Source: Promethearchaeota archaeon
GTDB taxonomy: Archaea > Asgardarchaeota > Lokiarchaeia > Sigyniarchaeales > SOKP01
NCBI GenBank assembly: GCA_016839705.1
Contig: JAEOTR010000019.1
Location: 60,285-124,284, forward strand
DNA length: 64,000 nucleotides
Direction: 5' to 3'
The translations under genes were made by a program, and so were the position numbers. The stretch's first letter is position 1; each line of letters opens with the position of its first letter. Shown here piece after piece: positions 1,951 through 60,131 of this stretch. Under the pieces are notes generated by a model. The model worked only from the letters and a program-made list of their open reading frames with translations, did not search any database and had not been told where the DNA came from.

Positions 1951-3047
1951 TATACCATCCCATAAAGTAAGTAAGTCATCACTATTGCTAACACATCATA
2001 AACACCATGAGTTATCATAACAGCGATTAAATTTTCATTTCTCCAATTATATAGCCAACCTAACATCAATGAAATTGCAAAATAAGGTGTAAATGACAAA
2101 AAAAATGATATTATGAAGAGATAAGGTGATTCTAAAGCGAGAAGAAAAATACCTACTAGATGAATCAATGAAAATATAATGGCTGATGTGATTAACCCCC
2201 ATCGTTTCCCCAAGCTTCTGACTAATCCTTTTTGCATAAATCCTCTAAATAAGATTTCTTCAGAAGTACCAATTACTAAAATTACAACAACGGAAAACAC
2301 AATCAAACTAGGTATATCTGGGGGAAGTATTTCACCTGTTAAACCAGTAGTATCATGAATTACGTTAATCCCTAAAAAAAATTCTAAAATTAATTCAATT
2401 ACAACCGATGTAAAAGTAACTACAAATACTCCAATTAGAGCAAAACCTAATCCAATTAAAATTTCTTTATAGATTCTTTTTCTATCATAATTTTTCGTAG
2501 TAAATCCTAGTAGTATTAATCTATTTTTTAGGGACGGATTCTTGAGATACTTACGTACATAGAAAATGGGGATAATAAAAAAAACTAACTCAAAAAGTGA
2601 AATTATTGAAATGAGGTAAGAGTTTGACACAAAATCAAGAAGTAGAGTTAAATCGTTCGATAAGAACATTATTAGTGAAAGAAATCCTCCAACTAAACCA
2701 TTCATTATTAGCAGAGCTATCACAGGTAATCCAATTGATGCCGTGGTTCCCCAAAGTTTATGATCTTTATTATCAATTAAATTCTCATCAGAAAGTAATT
2801 CGGGTCCGTAATAGATAGGAGGAGTATCATACAGAGAATATTGTGTTGGCGATTTATATGGATTAGAAGTATATCGCGGTTTCAACTTCTTATAATCTTT
2901 AATATATTGAATATCTGTTCCACAAACAGTACAAAATTTAAGGTTTTGAATATTTTGTAGCTTATTCCCACATATAGGACAAAATTTCCAATCTGAAGTA
3001 GGGAAATCTTGATCTCTGTCTGTCTTAGGAACTTCTTTATTATTCAT
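1950..3047 (-). CDS. CPBP/Abi (CAAX protease-like) intramembrane glutamic endopeptidase with N-terminal zinc ribbon
   Basis: CPICG...CTVCG ribbon; EEILFRG, FSLIH and HGVYD motifs; multiple TM segments. Confidence 0.9.
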   Translation of the reverse strand: MNNKEVPKTDRDQDFPTSDWKFCPICGNKLQNIQNLKFCTVCGTDIQYIKDYKKLKPRYTSNPYKSPTQYSLYDTPPIYYGPELLSDENLIDNKDHKLWGTTASIGLPVIALLIMNGLVGGFLSLIMFLSNDLTLLLDFVSNSYLISIISLFELVFFIIPIFYVRKYLKNPSLKNRLILLGFTTKNYDRKRIYKEILIGLGFALIGVFVVTFTSVVIELILEFFLGINVIHDTTGLTGEILPPDIPSLIVFSVVVILVIGTSEEILFRGFMQKGLVRSLGKRWGLITSAIIFSLIHLVGIFLLALESPYLFIISFFLSFTPYFAISLMLGWLYNWRNENLIAVMITHGVYDVLAIVMTYLLYGMV

Positions 3048-7960: not shown

Positions 7961-8061
7961 GGCCTGGTAGTCCAGCCTGGATAGGGCGCTGGCTTGCGGA
8001 GCCAGATATGTGAAATAATGATTTACACTGGAGATCGAGGGTTCAAATCCCCCCCAGGCCA
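7961..8061 (+). tRNA. tRNA-Arg(GCG) with a ~26-nt intron in the variable region (predicted 8008-8033, position 45/46)
   Basis: Acceptor GGCCTGG/CCAGGCC, D stem GTCC/GGGC, anticodon arm CTGGC-TTGCGGA-GCCAG (GCG at 7996-7998), T arm GAGGG-TTCAAAT-CCCCC; 31 nt lie between the anticodon and T arms instead of 5; CCA not encoded. Confidence 0.92.
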
Positions 8062-43729: not shown

Positions 43730-43748
43730 CTTTTATCTACAGATAATT

Positions 43749-44251
43749 TTAAAATCCTTCTCCTTGAATCGGCTTCTTTTCTTTTTCGATATATTTTTTT
43801 CGATTTTCCTCTATTTCAAAGCACCTACGATTTTCTTCCTGAAACAATAAATCATAAACCTCCTTTAGTACAAGACCAATTAGTGTAGCCTCAATAATAA
43901 CAATTAAAATTACCATCATAAATTCTAAGTTATGGAGTTCTCTAAAAAAAGGCTTGTAAACAGGAAGAGGTGGGGAAAATAAAGGCAGGTAACAACACCA
44001 ATTCTTTTTCCAAATTTTATAATATTAATTATTTCCAATCTAAATACTCTTTCTAATTTCAAAATTTCCCATAAATAATAAGTACAGAATAAGAGATTAA
44101 TTATGCATAGAATTATAATAAAATTCCTTTCTTGAAATGTTAGACCAATATAAGGTTTTAAAAAAATTGAACCAATTATAAAAGTAAGTGAAAATATAAA
44201 CAAAATTAGGGAGGAAGAAAGAAGCCCATTTTGAAAATCTTTATAATCTAA
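43749..44251 (-). pseudogene. Membrane protein with apparent frameshift at a T7 run (43944-43950)
   Basis: Adding one T extends ORF 43925..44203 with FRELHNLEFMMVILIVIIEATLIGLVLKEVYDLLF...QGEGF to TAA at 43749; the frame is also open upstream of 44203. Confidence 0.6.
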
Positions 44252-44393
44252 AGTTTTGCACCTTTATTATGTTAATATTGTAAGTATCTAAATGATCTAA
44301 GTAAAATTAGGTATTATAATTAATTTGATTCTATTTTCTAAATCCTAATTAAATTTTATGGTCATTTTTATTTTAAGCAATCTTTTTTAATAC

Positions 44394-44663
44394 ATGTCTG
44401 AACAAATTTCAATTTTGCTTTATATTAAAAATATGCTTGCAGATTTAATTTATATCAATGGAATTGTGGCAACAGAGCTGATAAAAGTAACAGAAAATAC
44501 TGCTACTATACGTCGTGGGGAGGAATTCCTAAGTAAAACAACATGTCTCGCTGAACATACCCAGTTAAATACTCAGATAATTGAGATTCTAAAAAAATAC
44601 CAAAAATCGCCAGAAGATTTAGCAGGATTAGCTTCACACGTATTAAAGGACAATAAAGAATAA
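44394..44663 (+). CDS. Hypothetical small helical protein
   Basis: 89-aa ORF heading a co-oriented run of genes. Confidence 0.65.
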   Translation: MSEQISILLYIKNMLADLIYINGIVATELIKVTENTATIRRGEEFLSKTTCLAEHTQLNTQIIEILKKYQKSPEDLAGLASHVLKDNKE

Positions 44664-44681
44664 GTTATTTTTGAGTATAAT

Positions 44682-46825: not shown

Positions 46826-46840
46826 AATGTGTAATAGATT

Positions 46841-47384
46841 TTAATATGTTTGAATTACTTTCAATACTACCTCTCTAATATTTTTCTTTAGGTCATCAAC
46901 TGTCGAATTATTCTTTATTTTATAATCTGCTTCTTTTAAAACTGCATCAAGTCCAAAATTTAGCTCTCTCATATCTCTCTCTTTTAATTGCTCTAAGTTT
47001 TTTGGATCATCACTTCGGGATCTCTTGAATAGCCTCCTTAATCGTTTTTTTTCGTCGACAATTATAGCAATAATAGGAAATTTCCAATAATTTCTAAAAA
47101 TATTGACTTCAGCAAGAGATCTTATACCATCAATAAAAATAACCTCATCTTTTTTTTTTTATTATCAGGTCGACACATTTTTTAGCAATTATTCCCGGTC
47201 CCCCACTTTTCCGTAATTGCTGTGCGATCCTCCCAAGATTATTTCCAGAAGGATCAATATTCCTTTTTTTAGCTTCATCTCGAACAATATCACCCATTGT
47301 TACAACAATTCCTAGATCCCTAATAGCCTCTATTGCTGTAGATTTTCCAGATCCGGGAAGCCCTACTAATGCTAGAATTTTCAT
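46841..47384 (-). pseudogene. UPF0200/COG0237 P-loop kinase (dephospho-CoA kinase-like), frameshifted at an A11 run
   Basis: GLPGSGKS and MGDIVR; removing one A at 47150-47160 gives KKKDEVIFIDGIRSLAEV...RSRSDDP...ERDMRELNFG...ADYKIKN to TAA at 46841. Confidence 0.8.
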
Positions 47385-47497
47385 TTCAATTAATTTTCTT
47401 AAAATAATTTAAATATCTAGAATTTGTTTAGATTCTATATAGAATATGAAATTAAGTTTTTAAAATATACTAGTAAACGGTATATATCACGCTAAAA

Positions 47498-48788: not shown

Positions 48789-49142
48789 ATGGTTAATGAA
48801 ACCACTATTATTATTAAAAATAGAAGTGACAAAGAAAAATCTATCAAAGACGCAATATTTGCATTTTCTGGTGGTAAGAAATCATTATTGATCAAGGGGG
48901 AAGGAGAAGAAATAAGTACTGCGGTTGAAGTTGCTGAAATATTAAAAAATCGGATGTATCCTAGACTAGAAATATCCAATGTCTCTCTGGGAAGCCGTCC
49001 TTTTTTTAACAATAAGAATTTTAGATATAATAGTAGAAATTCAAAAAATTATAATAGAAATACGAGATCTAATGGAAACAAGAAAGATCTTATTTCTAAA
49101 ATTGAAATCACGTTACAAACGAAATCTATAAGTTATTCATGA
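48789..49142 (+). CDS. Divergent Alba-family nucleic-acid-binding protein
   Basis: LIKGEGEEISTAVEVAEILK and ISKIEITL align to Alba KARGxAISxAVDVAE and VSxIEIxL. Confidence 0.78.
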   Translation: MVNETTIIIKNRSDKEKSIKDAIFAFSGGKKSLLIKGEGEEISTAVEVAEILKNRMYPRLEISNVSLGSRPFFNNKNFRYNSRNSKNYNRNTRSNGNKKDLISKIEITLQTKSISYS

Positions 49143-50155: not shown

Positions 50156-50548
50156 TTAAGTTCTTTTTGATATTTTCGTGTTTAATCCATTTCTAGCCTT
50201 TAGAATTAAATCTAAGTTTGCATTAATTTTTCCAACCTTGTTCACTTTATTTGACATTTGGAGATTTTCTATAGCGATTACTACCTCATCTGTTTTAGGA
50301 TTATAAATAATATCTCCTATCTCAACATCCTTAGTTGATTTAGAATTTGTTCCTTTAAAGATTCCCATTCCCGGTAGAGTCCAATATTTTTTCGATCCGA
50401 AGCTGAAACGACCTCTCATCGCAAAGGGCATTTTTTCAATTATTGCATCTGCAGATAATGGAGCAATATGTCTAATGATATGTCCTTCTAATGTACCAAT
50501 TCCGTATAAATCTACTTTTATTGGTATTAAACCTGTATCACTATTCAT
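50156..50548 (-). CDS. Cyclophilin-like fold protein
   Basis: RHIAPLS...IIEKMPF, VEIGDIIY and VNKVGKI pattern. Confidence 0.65.
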   Translation of the reverse strand: MNSDTGLIPIKVDLYGIGTLEGHIIRHIAPLSADAIIEKMPFAMRGRFSFGSKKYWTLPGMGIFKGTNSKSTKDVEIGDIIYNPKTDEVVIAIENLQMSNKVNKVGKINANLDLILKARNGLNTKISKRT

Positions 50549-50637
50549 GTTTTATAAATAATACAAATGGAGATATTTAATATTAATTAGAAATCCTCAA
50601 TGATTTGAAAAATAAAGTGGTTAGTATAATAACAAGA

Positions 50638-50645
50638 TTTAAATA
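50638..50645 (+). promoter_or_regulatory. Candidate archaeal TATA box for the putative ncRNA
   Basis: TTTAAATA preceded by purine-rich AACAAGA, ending 23 nt before the 5' strand of the terminal helix; weak on its own in AT-rich DNA. Confidence 0.45.
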
Positions 50646-50667
50646 TCTAAAGTGTGATCTATTAGAT

Positions 50668-51166
50668 GGAGGAACAATAGGTTAGTTTAGCATTGGATTT
50701 TAATACGCAATCACGGTTCGAACACCGATAAAATTGCATCCTTAACATTAACAAATCCCTTTTTTACGGAAAGTTTTTTATTTTTGAATTGAAACGTTTT
50801 GGTATAATAGAGCTTACAAATCTCTCATGTTCCTGGAGTGTTTAATGCACAAATACGGAAAATAAAATATTATTCAAAAATTCTATCATTTATTCCTTTT
50901 GATTAACACTATAGAGCAACACTATAAGTTTTTCAATTACTTCATGACTCTAGTAATAAATACATATTTGGCTAGAACGCATTAAATAACTGAATGCTGT
51001 TGATAGCATGTAGTTTCTGATACTCGAGACCTTTAAGCTTCAAGAACCATGACTAGTTAAAAACTTAAAATAGGAGCTTTGATTACGTATTTACTTCATA
51101 GGTGGTTTTTTTGAGTTTCCTTTGATTTAATATTACACGGAATAATCGGAGCACCTATTGTCCTCT
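50668..51166 (+). ncRNA. Putative ~500-nt structured non-coding RNA, family unassigned
   Basis: ORF-free gap; GGAGGAACAATAGGT (50668-50682) pairs with ACCTATTGTCCTCT (51153-51166); internal hairpins at 50695-50758, 50949-50976 and 51072-51121; TATA box upstream and T-tract downstream. Confidence 0.65.
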
Positions 51167-52009
51167 TTTCTTCTTATTCAAATTTATTAGATCTAATTCA
51201 GTATCTATATCAAAAAAACTATAGTTAGGATTTAAGCGATAGGCATAAAGAATATTCTTCTCTGTTATTAATATATTAACAATCTCTCTAAGAGTTTTCA
51301 CAGAAACTTTTTTTTCAGCATCGATAATGCTTTCAAGAAATTCAGAATCAAAAGCAAAAACAGGGATTAAAGATTTGTAAAATAAATTCTCAATTATGGA
51401 ATCAACTACGGTTTGCTCAATTTTTCTTACTATTTCTATTGAGTTTAGTTGTTTAGTTATAATTGTAGAGATTATTTTAGTCGGATCTTCTGTATTTTTT
51501 AGTCTAGCTCCCTGCAATTCCTGATAAAAAAGAAAAGAATTGTTTTGGAAAAGAGTAGAGTTACTTTTAATTGCAGTAATTAACTCACTAATCAGATTGA
51601 ATTCAAAAAAAGTATCACCAGGAAACACAAGATAGATAAAATCCTTATTAACAATACCTTTTTCATTGGTAATTGATAAAAAAGAATATAATGGTCCTTT
51701 TTTATAGTCGTTTCCAGAATCAATAACTAAAATCTTATCTTTTAAGGAATCGTTTTTTTGATTGATTTCCTTCATGTAATTTTCAATCTGTTCCTTTAAA
51801 TGCCCAGTCACAATGACTATTGATGTGATATGTGATTTTATTAAATTAGAGATCAAATATGATAAAATTGGTTTATGATTTATTTCTATTAATGGCTTTG
51901 GTTTATTAGAAATAAAATTACTAATTCGAGTTCCTTCTCCCGCACATAGGATTATCGACTTTAGTTTAACAGTTGAGTTATTCTTGAGTTGTGACAATTT
52001 TATTCCCAT
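51155..52009 (-). CDS. NTP transferase (nucleotidyltransferase) family protein
   Basis: IILCAGEGTR, KPKPL, VTGHLKEQI, GPLYS, PGD and FDIDT motifs. Confidence 0.85.
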   Translation of the reverse strand: MGIKLSQLKNNSTVKLKSIILCAGEGTRISNFISNKPKPLIEINHKPILSYLISNLIKSHITSIVIVTGHLKEQIENYMKEINQKNDSLKDKILVIDSGNDYKKGPLYSFLSITNEKGIVNKDFIYLVFPGDTFFEFNLISELITAIKSNSTLFQNNSFLFYQELQGARLKNTEDPTKIISTIITKQLNSIEIVRKIEQTVVDSIIENLFYKSLIPVFAFDSEFLESIIDAEKKVSVKTLREIVNILITEKNILYAYRLNPNYSFFDIDTELDLINLNKKKRGQ

Positions 52010-59207: not shown

Positions 59208-59399
59208 TTTTTTTAGCTAATATCCCGAATTCAGTTTAACGTATTCTATTTAATTACAATTATATTAAAATTATTGTGTTATCCAAATTTATAATTATAC
59301 TATTCAAAACTAATACAAAAATTAGATAAGTTCATTTATTTTTATCAAATTAATAATTATAATTTGTTATAATTAGTTGATGTTGTTAGAGTATTCTTC

Positions 59400-59594
59400 C
59401 TATAATTCTATAACATCACAAGTAATGTTTCTCAAAATTCTCTCTGCAGTAACAGGATCAGTTTTATATGTATAAAGTATTTTCTGTGTTCTTAATTTTA
59501 GCTTGACTACATCTTTCAAGCGCTTAACACGACAATGAACAGCAAACTCTGCTAATTCGATAAACTTCTCTTCATCAAATATTTCTCTGGGCAT
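59400..59594 (-). CDS. rpl38e: Ribosomal protein eL38
   Basis: MPREI, CRVKR and KLKLRT..LYT match eL38. Confidence 0.9.
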   Translation of the reverse strand: MPREIFDEEKFIELAEFAVHCRVKRLKDVVKLKLRTQKILYTYKTDPVTAERILRNITCDVIEL

Positions 59595-59785
59595 TTTTAC
59601 TCAACTAAGCATTCATAATGTAATTGTTGAATAGATTTATTCATCATAAAATTTTAATTTTATTATATTTCACATTATTTCAATCCAAAATTTTATTTTG
59701 AATCGCATGTTTTTGAAATTATTCTTATATTGATTATTTCTAAGTTAGATCTGAAGAAACAAAAAGAAATAAAAAACTGAAAATA

Positions 59786-59947
59786 ATGCCGATTGATGAT
59801 CCAGCGAAACGAAGAATTGCCCGATACCATTTATTGGAGAAAAGTGTTTGCCGTAAATGTGGATCTTTAAATCCCGTTAAAGCAAAAAAATGTAGACGGT
59901 GTCATAGCAAGGATTTGCGACCAAAAAGAAGAGAACTTACTAAATAA
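59786..59947 (+). CDS. rpl40e: Ribosomal protein eL40 (53 aa, absent from ORF track)
   Basis: MPIDDPAKRRIARYHLLEKSVCRKCGSLNPVKAKKCRRCHSKDLRPKRRELTK. Confidence 0.95.
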   Translation: MPIDDPAKRRIARYHLLEKSVCRKCGSLNPVKAKKCRRCHSKDLRPKRRELTK

Positions 59948-60131
59948 ATTAATAATTTTAATACTACTGATTTTTGAATATCAATCCTAATCCTATATTA
60001 TTCAAATTCACAATTTTGTAAATTTTTCCCATAAAAATTTTTATAGAATGAAAGAAATAGTACCTTACTTGAAAATCTATTTACAAATTTGTTAAGCATT
60101 ATATTAATTTAATATTAAAGGAGAAAATAAT

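What the first reader, a model, noticed from the sequence alone, without database searches (positions are those of the whole stretch)
50668..51166. Candidate large (~500 nt) structured ncRNA in a housekeeping region
Seen: the longest ORF-free gap in the window is bracketed by a 14-bp end-to-end helix with one bulged A (50668-50682 with 51153-51166), with TTTAAATA upstream and a T-tract after. Inside are a nested arm GGATTT/AAATCC, GCAAT/ATTGC, CGGT/ACCG capped by a T-loop-like TTCGAAC (50695-50758); AATTGAAA/TTTCAATT (50787/50931); TCTAGT/GCTAGA (50949/50971); a long arm 51072-51121 with many G-T pairs that only work on the + strand; and a long-range TTATTCC/GGAATAA (50890/51139). It lacks the hallmark motifs of SRP RNA and tmRNA and the canonical GAGGAAAGTCC of RNase P RNA. 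Inference: an unannotated, possibly Asgard-specific RNA and the best candidate for a new system in this window.
Basis: partly seen in the sequence, partly recalled or inferred. Interest (0 to 1): 0.85.

Follow-up and report, generated by a model that had tools for sequence, protein, structure and literature searches.

The report
New large non-coding RNA, Lokiarchaeia
The gap holds a real, roughly 500-nucleotide non-coding RNA gene whose two ends pair; it is present once per genome in all 13 sampled genera of one uncultured family of Asgard (Lokiarchaeia) archaea and matches no described RNA family, so its job is still unknown.

Summary
Window 50668-~51175 (+) is an independent non-coding RNA gene.

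- **Signals:** an invariant BRE/TATA promoter (50626-50645) sits about 23 nt upstream of the 5' end. An oligo-T terminator follows the 3' end.
- **Terminal helix (P1):** 50668-50682 pairs with 51153-51166. In this window alone it is not beyond chance (55 of 200 shuffles do as well). In 58 homologues it covaries repeatedly: C-G to U.G, U-A and G-C, and G-C to U-A and A-U.
- **Distribution:** the RNA was detected in all 13 genera sampled from one family of Lokiarchaeia (uncultured MAGs). It is single-copy, 358-631 nt long, and mostly lies between the same two genes. It was not found in the five genomes of sister families searched with the sensitive model.
- **Not a known family:** no Rfam 15 family matches it or seven homologues. 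RNase P RNA lies elsewhere in this genome, and SRP RNA lies elsewhere in relatives. It carries no conserved ORF and is not repeated in the genome.
the 5' arm is supported and a 3' arm is real, though in a different register. The three long-range helices are not conserved.
- **Function:** unknown. My best guess is a stable, trans-acting RNA-protein scaffold. No expression data could be obtained.

The parts
50626..50645 (+). BRE/TATA promoter of the RNA gene (TAATAACAAGATTTAAATA)
   Evidence: It is nearly invariant in 27 homologues from 8 genera (A4) and in 22 same-genus gaps. It ends 22-25 nt before the first paired base of P1. Its role as a promoter is inferred from the archaeal consensus, not measured.
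50668..51175 (+). The RNA gene itself, about 500 nt. The 5' end is inferred from the TATA distance and the 3' end from the T-tract.
   Evidence: It is single-copy in the genome. Homologues of 358-631 nt occur in 13 genera. There is no Rfam match and no conserved ORF; the median longest ATG ORF is 15 aa.
50668..50682 (+). P1 5' strand (GGAGGA-A-CAATAGGT; core GGAYAAUAG)
   Evidence: Anchored pair count on 53 sequences: positions 0-6 are paired in 53 of 53. Position 3 is CG 42, UG 10, UA 1. Position 9 is GC 32, UA 13, AU 5, UG 2, GU 1. Further compensations appear in other genera.
51153..51166 (+). P1 3' strand (ACCTATTGTCCTCT)
   Evidence: Same evidence as the 5' strand. The stop codon of the convergent NTP-transferase ORF (51155-51157) lies inside it here. 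That ORF ends in P1 in only 21 of 58 loci, so coding does not explain the conservation.
51167..51175 (+). Oligo-T terminator tract
   Evidence: A run of 7-12 T (with occasional C) follows P1 in the homologues inspected. Its role as a terminator is inferred.
50690..50696 (+). Near-invariant GCAUUGG motif just after the P1 5' strand
   Evidence: CAUUGG is identical or nearly so in all 27 sequences of A4 and is kept in the further genera. The pattern GGAYAATAG-N(0-14)-GCATTGG hits 76 of 134 family genomes, against 4 hits for the reversed control.
50695..50758 (+). 5' arm: GGATTT/AAATCC, GCAAT/ATTGC and the CGGT/ACCG hairpin (50714-50727)
   Evidence: 66-75% of cells are paired on A3, against 38-45% when slid, with compensatory changes. 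The loop sequence is not conserved.
50774..50785 (+). Internal U-tract (7-12 U in relatives), usually in the loop of a small hairpin
   Evidence: It lies 80-115 nt from the 5' end in most homologues. The enclosing stems differ between lineages: UCUGG/CCAGA, GUGAC/GUUCAC, CCGAU/AUUCGG.
50828..50918 (+). Central long-range helix: TGTTCC..AGTGT (50828-50841) with ACACT..AGAGCA (50906-50918), enclosing a variable insert
   Evidence: RNAalifold on A3. All five AGUGC/GCACU pairs show changes on both sides, and the helix is 75-83% paired.
50994..51030 (+). Hairpin closed by CUC..GU/AC..GAG, and the conserved block UAC-NN-GAGACA (GAGAC at 51026-51030)
   Evidence: The helix is 92.5% paired on A3. GAGAC is invariant in the genus.
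51069..51152 (+). Junction AAUAGGA plus the 3' arm (GCTTTGATT 51076-51084 with AATCGGAGC 51144-51152, and upper stems)
   Evidence: Model R1 finds one copy per genome, scoring 121 bits on the + strand against 30 bits on the - strand. On A6, 90.3% of cells are paired against 87.8 +/- 0.4 in shuffles (0 of 500) and 30-53% when slid. Two near-invariant U.G pairs work only on the + strand.
50156..50548 (-). Context: cyclophilin-like gene, divergent from the RNA
   Evidence: Pfam Cyclophil_like2. It is adjacent to the RNA in 11 of the genera checked, but not in g15.
51155..52009 (-). Context: NTP_transferase-domain gene, convergent with the RNA
   Evidence: Pfam. It is adjacent in most genera including g15, but not in g16 or g23.

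Best explanation
Window 50668-~51175 (+) is an independent gene for a non-coding RNA of about 500 nt. The RNA family is undescribed and confined to one uncultured family of Lokiarchaeia (Asgard archaea).

**Shown.**
- A conserved BRE/TATA element lies at a fixed distance from the 5' end, and a T-tract follows the 3' end.
- The first and last 9-15 nt pair into a terminal helix (P1) that covaries.
- Inside P1 are a 5' arm, a hairpin with a U-rich loop, a central long-range helix around a variable insert, a GAGACA block, and a roughly 80-nt 3' arm that abuts P1.
- There is one copy per genome. The RNA was detected in all 13 genera sampled from the family. It keeps its place when either neighbouring gene is replaced.

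**Inferred.**
- It is transcribed from about 50668 and ends in the T-tract.
- P1 plus the 3' U-tail protects a stable RNA.
- It acts in trans as the RNA scaffold of a lineage-specific RNA-protein particle. The invariant single-stranded GCAUUGG, the U-rich loop or tail, and the GAGACA block would be the protein or target contact sites.

The cellular process it serves is not known.
For: **Conservation.** The RNA blocks are 70-79% identical at the nucleotide level across species whose adjacent NTP-transferase protein is only 34-50% identical.

**Promoter and terminator.** Both are conserved in 8 or more genera.

**P1 covariation.** At position 9, 53 of 53 sequences pair, using three Watson-Crick pair types. 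Across genera:
- C-G changes to U.G, and to U-A in g12 and g19.
- C-G changes to G-C in g17.
- G-C changes to A-U in g13 and g20.
- All single-sided changes at positions 3 and 9 are wobbles that work only on the + strand.

**Whole structure.** 86.9% of cells are paired against 83.4 +/- 0.3 in shuffles (0 of 500). The covariation score is 0.148 against 0.098 (0 of 500). Slid controls give 37-47% paired.

**3' arm.** 90.3% of cells are paired against 87.8% in shuffles (0 of 500).

**Copy number and spread.** One copy per genome. Found in all 13 genera of family f1 and in 0 of 5 genomes from f2 and f4.

**Independence from neighbours.** g15 lacks the cyclophilin-like neighbour. g16 and g23 lack the NTP-transferase neighbour.

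**Not a known RNA or a coding gene.** No Rfam family matches. RNase P RNA and SRP RNA lie elsewhere. There is no conserved ORF.
Against:
- G+C is 29%, below the genome's 31% and far below the 46% of this genome's RNase P RNA.
- Folding z-scores are weak, -1.4 to -1.8. The interior is very variable between genera, so much of it may be loosely structured.
- An internal run of 7-12 U should partly terminate archaeal RNA polymerase, so the full-length form may be a minority species.
- The shuffle control of the pair counts can be exceeded by related sequences without any structure (stated in the tool's own description).
- The scaffold role and any protein partner are guesses.
Confidence: 0.75

Rival explanations
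1. A base-pairing regulatory RNA or conformational switch. The invariant GCAUUGG (or another conserved single strand) would pair with target RNAs. Access would be controlled by the competition between the 5' end and its internal near-copy (ACAAUAGGAGC) for the same 3' strand.
For: - GCAUUGG is near-invariant in all genera, yet only its GG is paired in the model.
- The internal copy also tracks changes in the 3' strand in g1, g15, g19 and g21.
Against: - No target could be identified; a 7-mer has too little information for a 3.4-Mb genome.
- In g22 the internal pairing keeps a mismatch (13 of 47 sequences unpaired at that pair), while P1 pairs in 53 of 53.
- 360-630 nt with several conserved helices is far more than a seed-type regulator needs.
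Confidence: 0.12
2. A cis-acting antisense or 3'-overlap regulator of the convergent NTP-transferase gene, or of the divergent cyclophilin-like gene.
For: - The RNA's 3' end meets or overlaps the 3' end of the NTP-transferase gene. The stop codon lies inside P1 here.
- The pair stays together in g15, where the cyclophilin-like gene has moved 9 kb away.
Against: - g16 and g23 keep the RNA without an adjacent NTP-transferase gene.
- The ORF reaches P1 in only 21 of 58 loci.
- A relative from family f2 has the NTP-transferase-like gene with no such RNA beside it.
Confidence: 0.06
3. Two products: a short 5' RNA of about 105 nt that ends at the internal U-tract is the main functional species, and the full-length form is read-through.
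For: - A 7-12 U tract lies at a conserved distance from the 5' end.
- The 5' 100 nt are the best-conserved part across genera.
Against: - P1 covariation requires the 5' and 3' ends to pair, in cis or in trans.
- No conserved second promoter is seen downstream of the U-tract.
- The U-tract lies in a hairpin loop in most lineages and is absent in g12.
Confidence: 0.1
4. A very divergent member of a known RNA family: RNase P or MRP RNA, SRP RNA, an snRNA-like or Y-like RNA, or a bacterial-type large ncRNA.
For: - The general look is familiar: a terminal stem, a 3' U-tail and a multi-arm interior.
- Another first-stage note (e1-5577191) saw an RNase P/MRP-like topology.
Against: - No Rfam 15 family reaches E of 5 or better on the RNA in this window or in seven homologues.
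- RNase P RNA scores 129 bits elsewhere in the genome.
- SRP RNA is at separate loci in relatives.
- No TROVE/Ro protein is found.
Confidence: 0.03
5. A DNA-level element rather than an RNA. The inverted repeats would be protein-binding sites (as at an origin), or the terminal repeats of a dead mobile element.
For: - Inverted repeats of 10-12 bp flank an AT-rich 480 bp.
- Two arms bound by one protein would also change in concert.
Against: - It is single-copy and syntenic.
- 13 one-sided changes at P1 positions 3 and 9 are all G.U or U.G on the + strand, which would be A-C mismatches on the other strand, and there are none of any other kind.
- Two near-invariant U.G pairs lie in the 3' arm.
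- Promoter and terminator signals are on one strand, and no orc1/cdc6 gene is nearby.
Confidence: 0.02

Closest known systems
Archaeal RNase P RNA (Rfam RF00373) and SRP RNA (RF01857)
   Same: It is a single-copy, housekeeping-style RNA gene with its own archaeal promoter. It has a terminal helix joining the 5' and 3' ends, a multi-arm interior, and is several hundred nt long.
   Different: - Neither model matches it.
- The genuine RNase P RNA is at contig C1:10811-11133 of the window's genome.
- SRP RNA is at other loci in relatives.
- There is no P4 (GAGGAAAGUCC-type) or helix-8 motif.
- G+C is 29% against 46% for RNase P RNA.
- It is restricted to one family rather than universal.
Orphan large structured ncRNAs of bacteria (OLE, GOLLD, HEARO, ROOL, raiA classes in Rfam)
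   Same: It is large (360-630 nt), conserved in a narrow lineage, found by comparative genomics, of unknown function, and presumably a particle of RNA and protein.
   Different: - It is archaeal and matches none of those models.
- It is far more AT-rich and has a much more variable interior.
- Covariation support so far is concentrated in P1, the central helix and the arms.
Y RNA, vault RNA and 7SK-type small RNPs of eukaryotes, and bacterial Y-like RNAs
   Same: It works like these in outline: a conserved stem formed by the two ends, an oligo-U 3' tail, a variable interior, and a non-coding scaffold role. This resemblance is from general knowledge and is not a test.
   Different: - It is 4-6 times longer.
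- No TROVE/Ro protein is found in the genome.
- No Rfam match.
Miniature inverted-repeat elements (MITEs)
   Same: About 500 bp of non-coding DNA bounded by 10-14-bp inverted repeats.
   Different: It has one copy per genome at a fixed syntenic site. It has its own promoter and terminator, and the pairing tolerates wobbles.

Membership tests
Archaeal RNase P RNA (RF00373) / nuclear RNase P and MRP RNA | Covariance-model match and the P4 pseudoknot motifs; one such RNA per genome | tested here: not met
   No RNase P or MRP hit at E of 10 or better on 50450-51300, nor at E of 5 or better on 8 homologous loci. A 129-bit RNase P RNA lies at G000:C1:10811-11133.
Archaeal SRP RNA (RF01857) | Covariance-model match (helices 5 and 8); one per genome | tested here: not met
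   No hit in the region. 19 of 24 genus relatives have an SRP RNA hit (43-84 bits) at loci other than this RNA, for example G003:C23 against G003:C2.
tRNA / tmRNA | Cloverleaf or tRNA-like domain with a tag reading frame | tested here: not met
   ARAGORN finds nothing in 50400-51400. No Rfam hit. The 'T-loop-like' loop is not conserved.
Box C/D or H/ACA guide RNA, or another L7Ae-bound kink-turn RNA | Conserved tandem sheared G.A pairs next to a 3-nt bulge; C/D or ACA boxes | tested here: inconclusive
   A UUGA...UGAUAC arrangement around 51000-51025 could give U.U, G.A and A.G pairs in the majority. However, the GA on the 3' side varies (GA, UU, GU, AU, GG, GC, AA) across the alignment. The only snoRNA hit is at chance level, E 7.4.
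Mobile element with terminal inverted repeats (MITE) | Several copies per genome at unrelated sites | tested here: not met
   Only the locus itself matches in the 3.36-Mb assembly. There is one copy per genome at a syntenic site in relatives.
Ro-Y RNA particle | TROVE-domain protein in the genome; Y RNA of about 100 nt with a bulged terminal stem | tested here: not met
   PF05731 was not found in the 93%-complete genome; the control search hit Deinococcus. The RNA is 360-630 nt long.
Spliceosomal snRNAs (U2, U6) / group II intron domain V | Covariance-model match; ACAGAGA and AGC motifs in the correct structural context | tested here: not met
   No such Rfam family appears at E of 10 or better. 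Short look-alike words (GAUAC..GAGA, UGUAGUG) were recalled from memory and count only as a lead.
The new family itself (working definition) | BRE/TATA, then about 23 nt, then GGAYAAUAG, then 0-14 nt, then GCAUUGG; a complementary CUAUURUCC plus T-tract lies 350-620 nt downstream; one copy per genome | tested here: met
   The window has all of these features, with GGAACAAUAG (one extra, bulged A) in place of the core. The same features are seen in g1, g12-g17 and g19-g23. g18 has the 5' features only; its 3' partner was not confirmed.

The most novel reading that the evidence does not exclude
This RNA is the core of an Asgard-lineage-specific RNA-protein particle built on eukaryote-like principles. 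Its features would be a terminal stem, an oligo-U loop or tail bound by Sm/LSm-type proteins, and a dedicated Alba-fold partner. The partner would be the divergent Alba paralogue encoded 1.5 kb upstream, whose orthologues were found only in the RNA-bearing family. That would make it an archaeal analogue of the Alba-fold (Rpp20/Rpp25) RNPs or of small nuclear-type RNPs.
Probability: 0.08. Interest if true: 0.9.

Novelty: categorically new. Interest (0 to 1): 0.72.

Why it matters
Large conserved non-coding RNAs without a known function are rare, and very few are known from archaea. Past examples (RNase P, SRP RNA, OLE and others) turned out to be cores of important machines.

This RNA is universal in one family of Lokiarchaeia, the archaeal group nearest to eukaryotes, and was not found in its sister families. 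It therefore marks a lineage-specific RNA-based function in organisms where almost all attention has gone to proteins.

The work here supplies a testable definition:
- a promoter and ends;
- a covarying terminal helix;
- two covariance models;
- public contigs that carry it, for example JAHQWK010000002.1 (the record of G003:C2) near 228.7-229.2 kb.

With these, it can be sought in metatranscriptomes and used for pull-downs.

If no transcript is found, it would still be an unusually constrained 500-bp non-coding element that needs explaining.

Tried and rejected
- **Rfam:** gathering thresholds on the whole window found only a tRNA at 7961-8061. Permissive scans of the region and of 8 homologous loci gave only chance-level hits.
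- **MITE idea:** rejected because the element is single-copy.
- **RNase P and SRP RNA:** rejected.
- **Structure-aware alignment:** mafft-qinsi and mafft-xinsi are not usable on the script machine. R-scape, CMfinder and LocARNA are not installed.
- **RNAalifold:**
  - With default settings on MAFFT alignments it predicted little or nothing.
  - A ribosum-scored run in Python gave the model used here.
- **All-against-all column-pair scan:** too noisy in this U-rich RNA.
- **RNAduplex of 200 x 200 nt:** uninformative as a chance test. It was replaced by a helix-length test.
- **Coding constraint on the P1 3' strand from the NTP-transferase C-terminus:** rejected.
- **Y RNA/Ro:** rejected.
- **GGA-repeat protein-sponge idea:** GGA is enriched 2-fold overall, but only in g1 and g22, so it is not a family-wide feature.
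- **Kink-turn at 51000-51025:** not conserved.
- **Pattern hits in family f5 and in two g15 genomes:** spurious, with no promoter and no 3' partner.
- **First CM alignment (A5):** discarded because it contained reverse-strand hits that would fake covariation. It was redone as A6.
- **Literature:** two searches and one paper look-up found no description of such an RNA in Asgard archaea.
- **Earlier scan findings:** one search of look-alike stretches in other genomes returned nothing, and one word search was mis-specified.

Full report
**What is in the window**

The stretch 50549-51154 lies between two genes on the minus strand. One is a cyclophilin-like gene (50156-50548). The other carries an NTP_transferase domain (51155-52009). 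The stretch is the longest one free of ORFs of 60 aa or more, although not at 80 or 100 aa cut-offs.

- GGAGGAACAATAGGT (50668-50682) pairs with ACCTATTGTCCTCT (51153-51166), giving 14 pairs and one bulged A.
- TTTAAATA lies at 50638-50645.
- A T-rich run follows 51166.

Taken alone, this is not beyond chance. 55 of 200 dinucleotide shuffles give an equally long helix between the two ends. Folding z-scores are weak, -1.4 on the + strand and -2.8 on the - strand. G+C is no higher than in the surroundings.

**Known families are excluded**

- Rfam 15 finds only a tRNA in the whole window.
- A permissive scan of the region finds nothing better than E = 3.4.
- Eight homologous loci from eight genera give nothing either.
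- ARAGORN finds nothing.
- The region is single-copy in the 3.36-Mb assembly, so it is not a repeat element.
- The genome's RNase P RNA is on another contig at 129 bits.
- SRP RNA was not detected in this 93%-complete assembly. It is present at separate loci in 19 of 24 relatives of the genus, and those relatives also carry the present element.
- No TROVE/Ro protein is encoded.

**Comparison shows a gene**

A DNA search of relatives found two conserved blocks about 430 nt apart in every genome of the genus. Twenty-one syntenic gaps of 510-635 nt were fetched.

Their alignment shows three things:
- An invariant TTAATAACAAGATTTAAATA element.
- The RNA's first paired bases about 23 nt after it.
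- A nearly invariant 3' end, AATCGGAGCRCCTATTGTCC, followed by 7-12 T.

The RNA blocks are 70-79% identical in DNA. The neighbouring NTP-transferase protein is only 34-50% identical.

The longest ATG ORF in the homologues has a median of 15 aa and is not conserved.

The NTP-transferase reading frame ends inside the 3' strand of the terminal helix in only 21 of 58 loci. Coding therefore does not explain that strand's conservation.

**The terminal helix covaries**

I anchored 53 distinct sequences on the helix core and counted pairs:

| Position | Pairs observed |
|---|---|
| 0-6 | paired in all 53 |
| 3 | C-G 42, U.G 10, U-A 1 |
| 9 | G-C 32, U-A 13, A-U 5, U.G 2, G.U 1 (53 of 53 paired) |

- Species that lost the inner AGG have an outward extension instead (GAAAAGGACAAU/AUUGUCCUUUUC).
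- The outer extension also flips in concert: GGAGGA/UCCUCU, GAUGGA/UCCAUC, GAAGAGGA/UCCUUUUC.

Other genera add independent compensations:
- GGAUAAUAG/CUAUUAUCC in g12 and g19.
- GGAGAAUAGUG/CACUAUUCUCC in g17.
- GAACAAUAG/CUAUUGUUC in g13.
- AGACAAUAG/CUAUUGUCU in g20.

Every one-sided change at positions 3 and 9 is a wobble on the + strand. This argues for an RNA helix on that strand rather than a DNA repeat.

**The rest of the fold**

I ran a ribosum-scored RNAalifold on 51 sequences. It gave these elements:
- P1.
- The CGGU/ACCG hairpin.
- A central long-range helix (UGUUCC..AGUGC with GCACU..GGAGCA).
- A hairpin closed by CUC..GU/AC..GAG.
- A long 3' arm.

Counts on that structure:

| Measure | Observed | Shuffled | Slid |
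|---|---|---|---|
| Cells paired | 86.9% | 83.4 +/- 0.3% (0 of 500 reach it) | 37-47% |
| Cells changed on both sides | 78 | 27 | - |
| Covariation score | 0.148 | 0.098 (0 of 500) | - |

The tool warns that related sequences can beat the shuffles without any structure. The slid controls and the several independent compensations therefore carry the weight.

Further points:
- On a model-based alignment of 49 sequences, the 3' arm is 90.3% paired against 87.8% in shuffles (0 of 500).
- A 7-12 U tract about 100 nt from the 5' end sits in the loop of a small hairpin whose stem sequence differs between lineages.

**Distribution**

- A model of the 3' arm finds one copy per genome in four genera. 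The + strand scores far above the - strand.
- The 5' word GGAYAATAG-N(0-14)-GCATTGG hits 76 of 134 genomes of the family, against 4 hits for the reversed control.
- A sequence model of the promoter plus the 5' domain finds the RNA in genera that the first two searches missed (g13, g14, g17, g18, g20). Together the three searches detect it in all 13 genera sampled from the family. The sensitive model finds it in none of 5 genomes from two sister families.
- The hits in a third family, f5, are spurious.
- Lengths run from 358 to 631 nt, and the interior differs greatly between genera.
- The family consists of uncultured MAGs labelled Promethearchaeota archaeon.
- Five genomes of the window's own genus gave no hit. 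They are 58-95% complete.

**Context**

- Most genera have the order cyclophilin-like gene, RNA, NTP-transferase.
- g15 keeps only the NTP-transferase neighbour.
- g16 and g23 keep only the cyclophilin-like neighbour.
- A sister-family genome has an NTP-transferase-like gene with no such RNA beside it.

The RNA is therefore an independent gene and not an appendage of either neighbour.

A divergent Alba paralogue (48789-49142) lies 1.5 kb upstream here, and 1.6-7 kb upstream on the same strand in five other genera of the family. Five genomes outside the family show only weak hits to ordinary Alba genes. This is a lead for a protein partner. Relatives share most of their genes, so it is not evidence.

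**How it most likely works**

Shown: a conserved promoter, terminator, terminal helix and several internal helices; one copy per genome; breadth across the family.

Inferred:
- Transcription starts at about 50668.
- A blunt terminal helix with a U-tail stabilises the RNA.
- It acts in trans as a scaffold for proteins.
- The invariant GCAUUGG, the U-rich loop and the GAGACA block are the contact sites.

I give 0.9 that this is a genuine RNA gene and about 0.8 that it belongs to no described family. I give only about 0.4-0.5 to the scaffold reading against a base-pairing or switch role.

**Unexplained points**

- The same 3' strand can pair with an internal near-copy of the 5' end.
- The internal U-tract should partly terminate transcription.
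- G+C is low.

**Limits**

- No transcript data could be obtained.
- No R-scape or structure-aware aligner was available.
- The alignments of the variable interior are poor, so helices there may have been missed.

Noticed in passing
window 7961-8061 (+): A 101-nt tRNA gene (49 bits). It has an insertion of about 30 nt between the anticodon arm and the T arm, which is probably an intron at a non-canonical position.
   Followed up: no
whole genome G000; relatives G001-G024: Rfam's archaeal SRP RNA model finds nothing in this genome even at E of 10. In the relatives it scores only 43-84 bits, below the gathering score of 96.5. The SRP RNA of this family is therefore unusually divergent, and here it is either missing from the assembly or too divergent to detect.
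   Followed up: partly
window 48789-49142 (+): This is the third and most divergent Alba-domain gene of the genome (43 bits against 61-62 for the other two). Orthologues of 50-76% identity lie 1.6-7 kb upstream of the RNA, on the same strand, in five other genera of the family. Only weak hits to ordinary Alba genes appear in five genomes outside the family.
   Followed up: partly
window 51155-51175: The last codons of the NTP-transferase ORF (..KKKRGQ-stop) are read from the complement of the RNA's terminator and P1 strand. The ORF runs into the RNA gene in 21 of 58 loci and stops earlier in the rest.
   Followed up: yes
window 50646-50667 and homologues: A conserved CATAT word lies about 12 nt after the TATA box, between the TATA box and the start of the RNA, in most genera. 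It may be a promoter-proximal or initiator element.
   Followed up: no
window 59208-60131, 46826-47497, 43730-44681: These are other long stretches without ORFs of 80-100 aa or more (924, 672 and 952 nt). They were not examined.
   Followed up: no
L129 (G038:C1) about 2470-2570, minus strand: In a sister-family genome, a tRNA-like sequence and a small ORF follow the NTP-transferase-like gene, where this family has the RNA. The tRNA-like sequence was noted by eye only.
   Followed up: no
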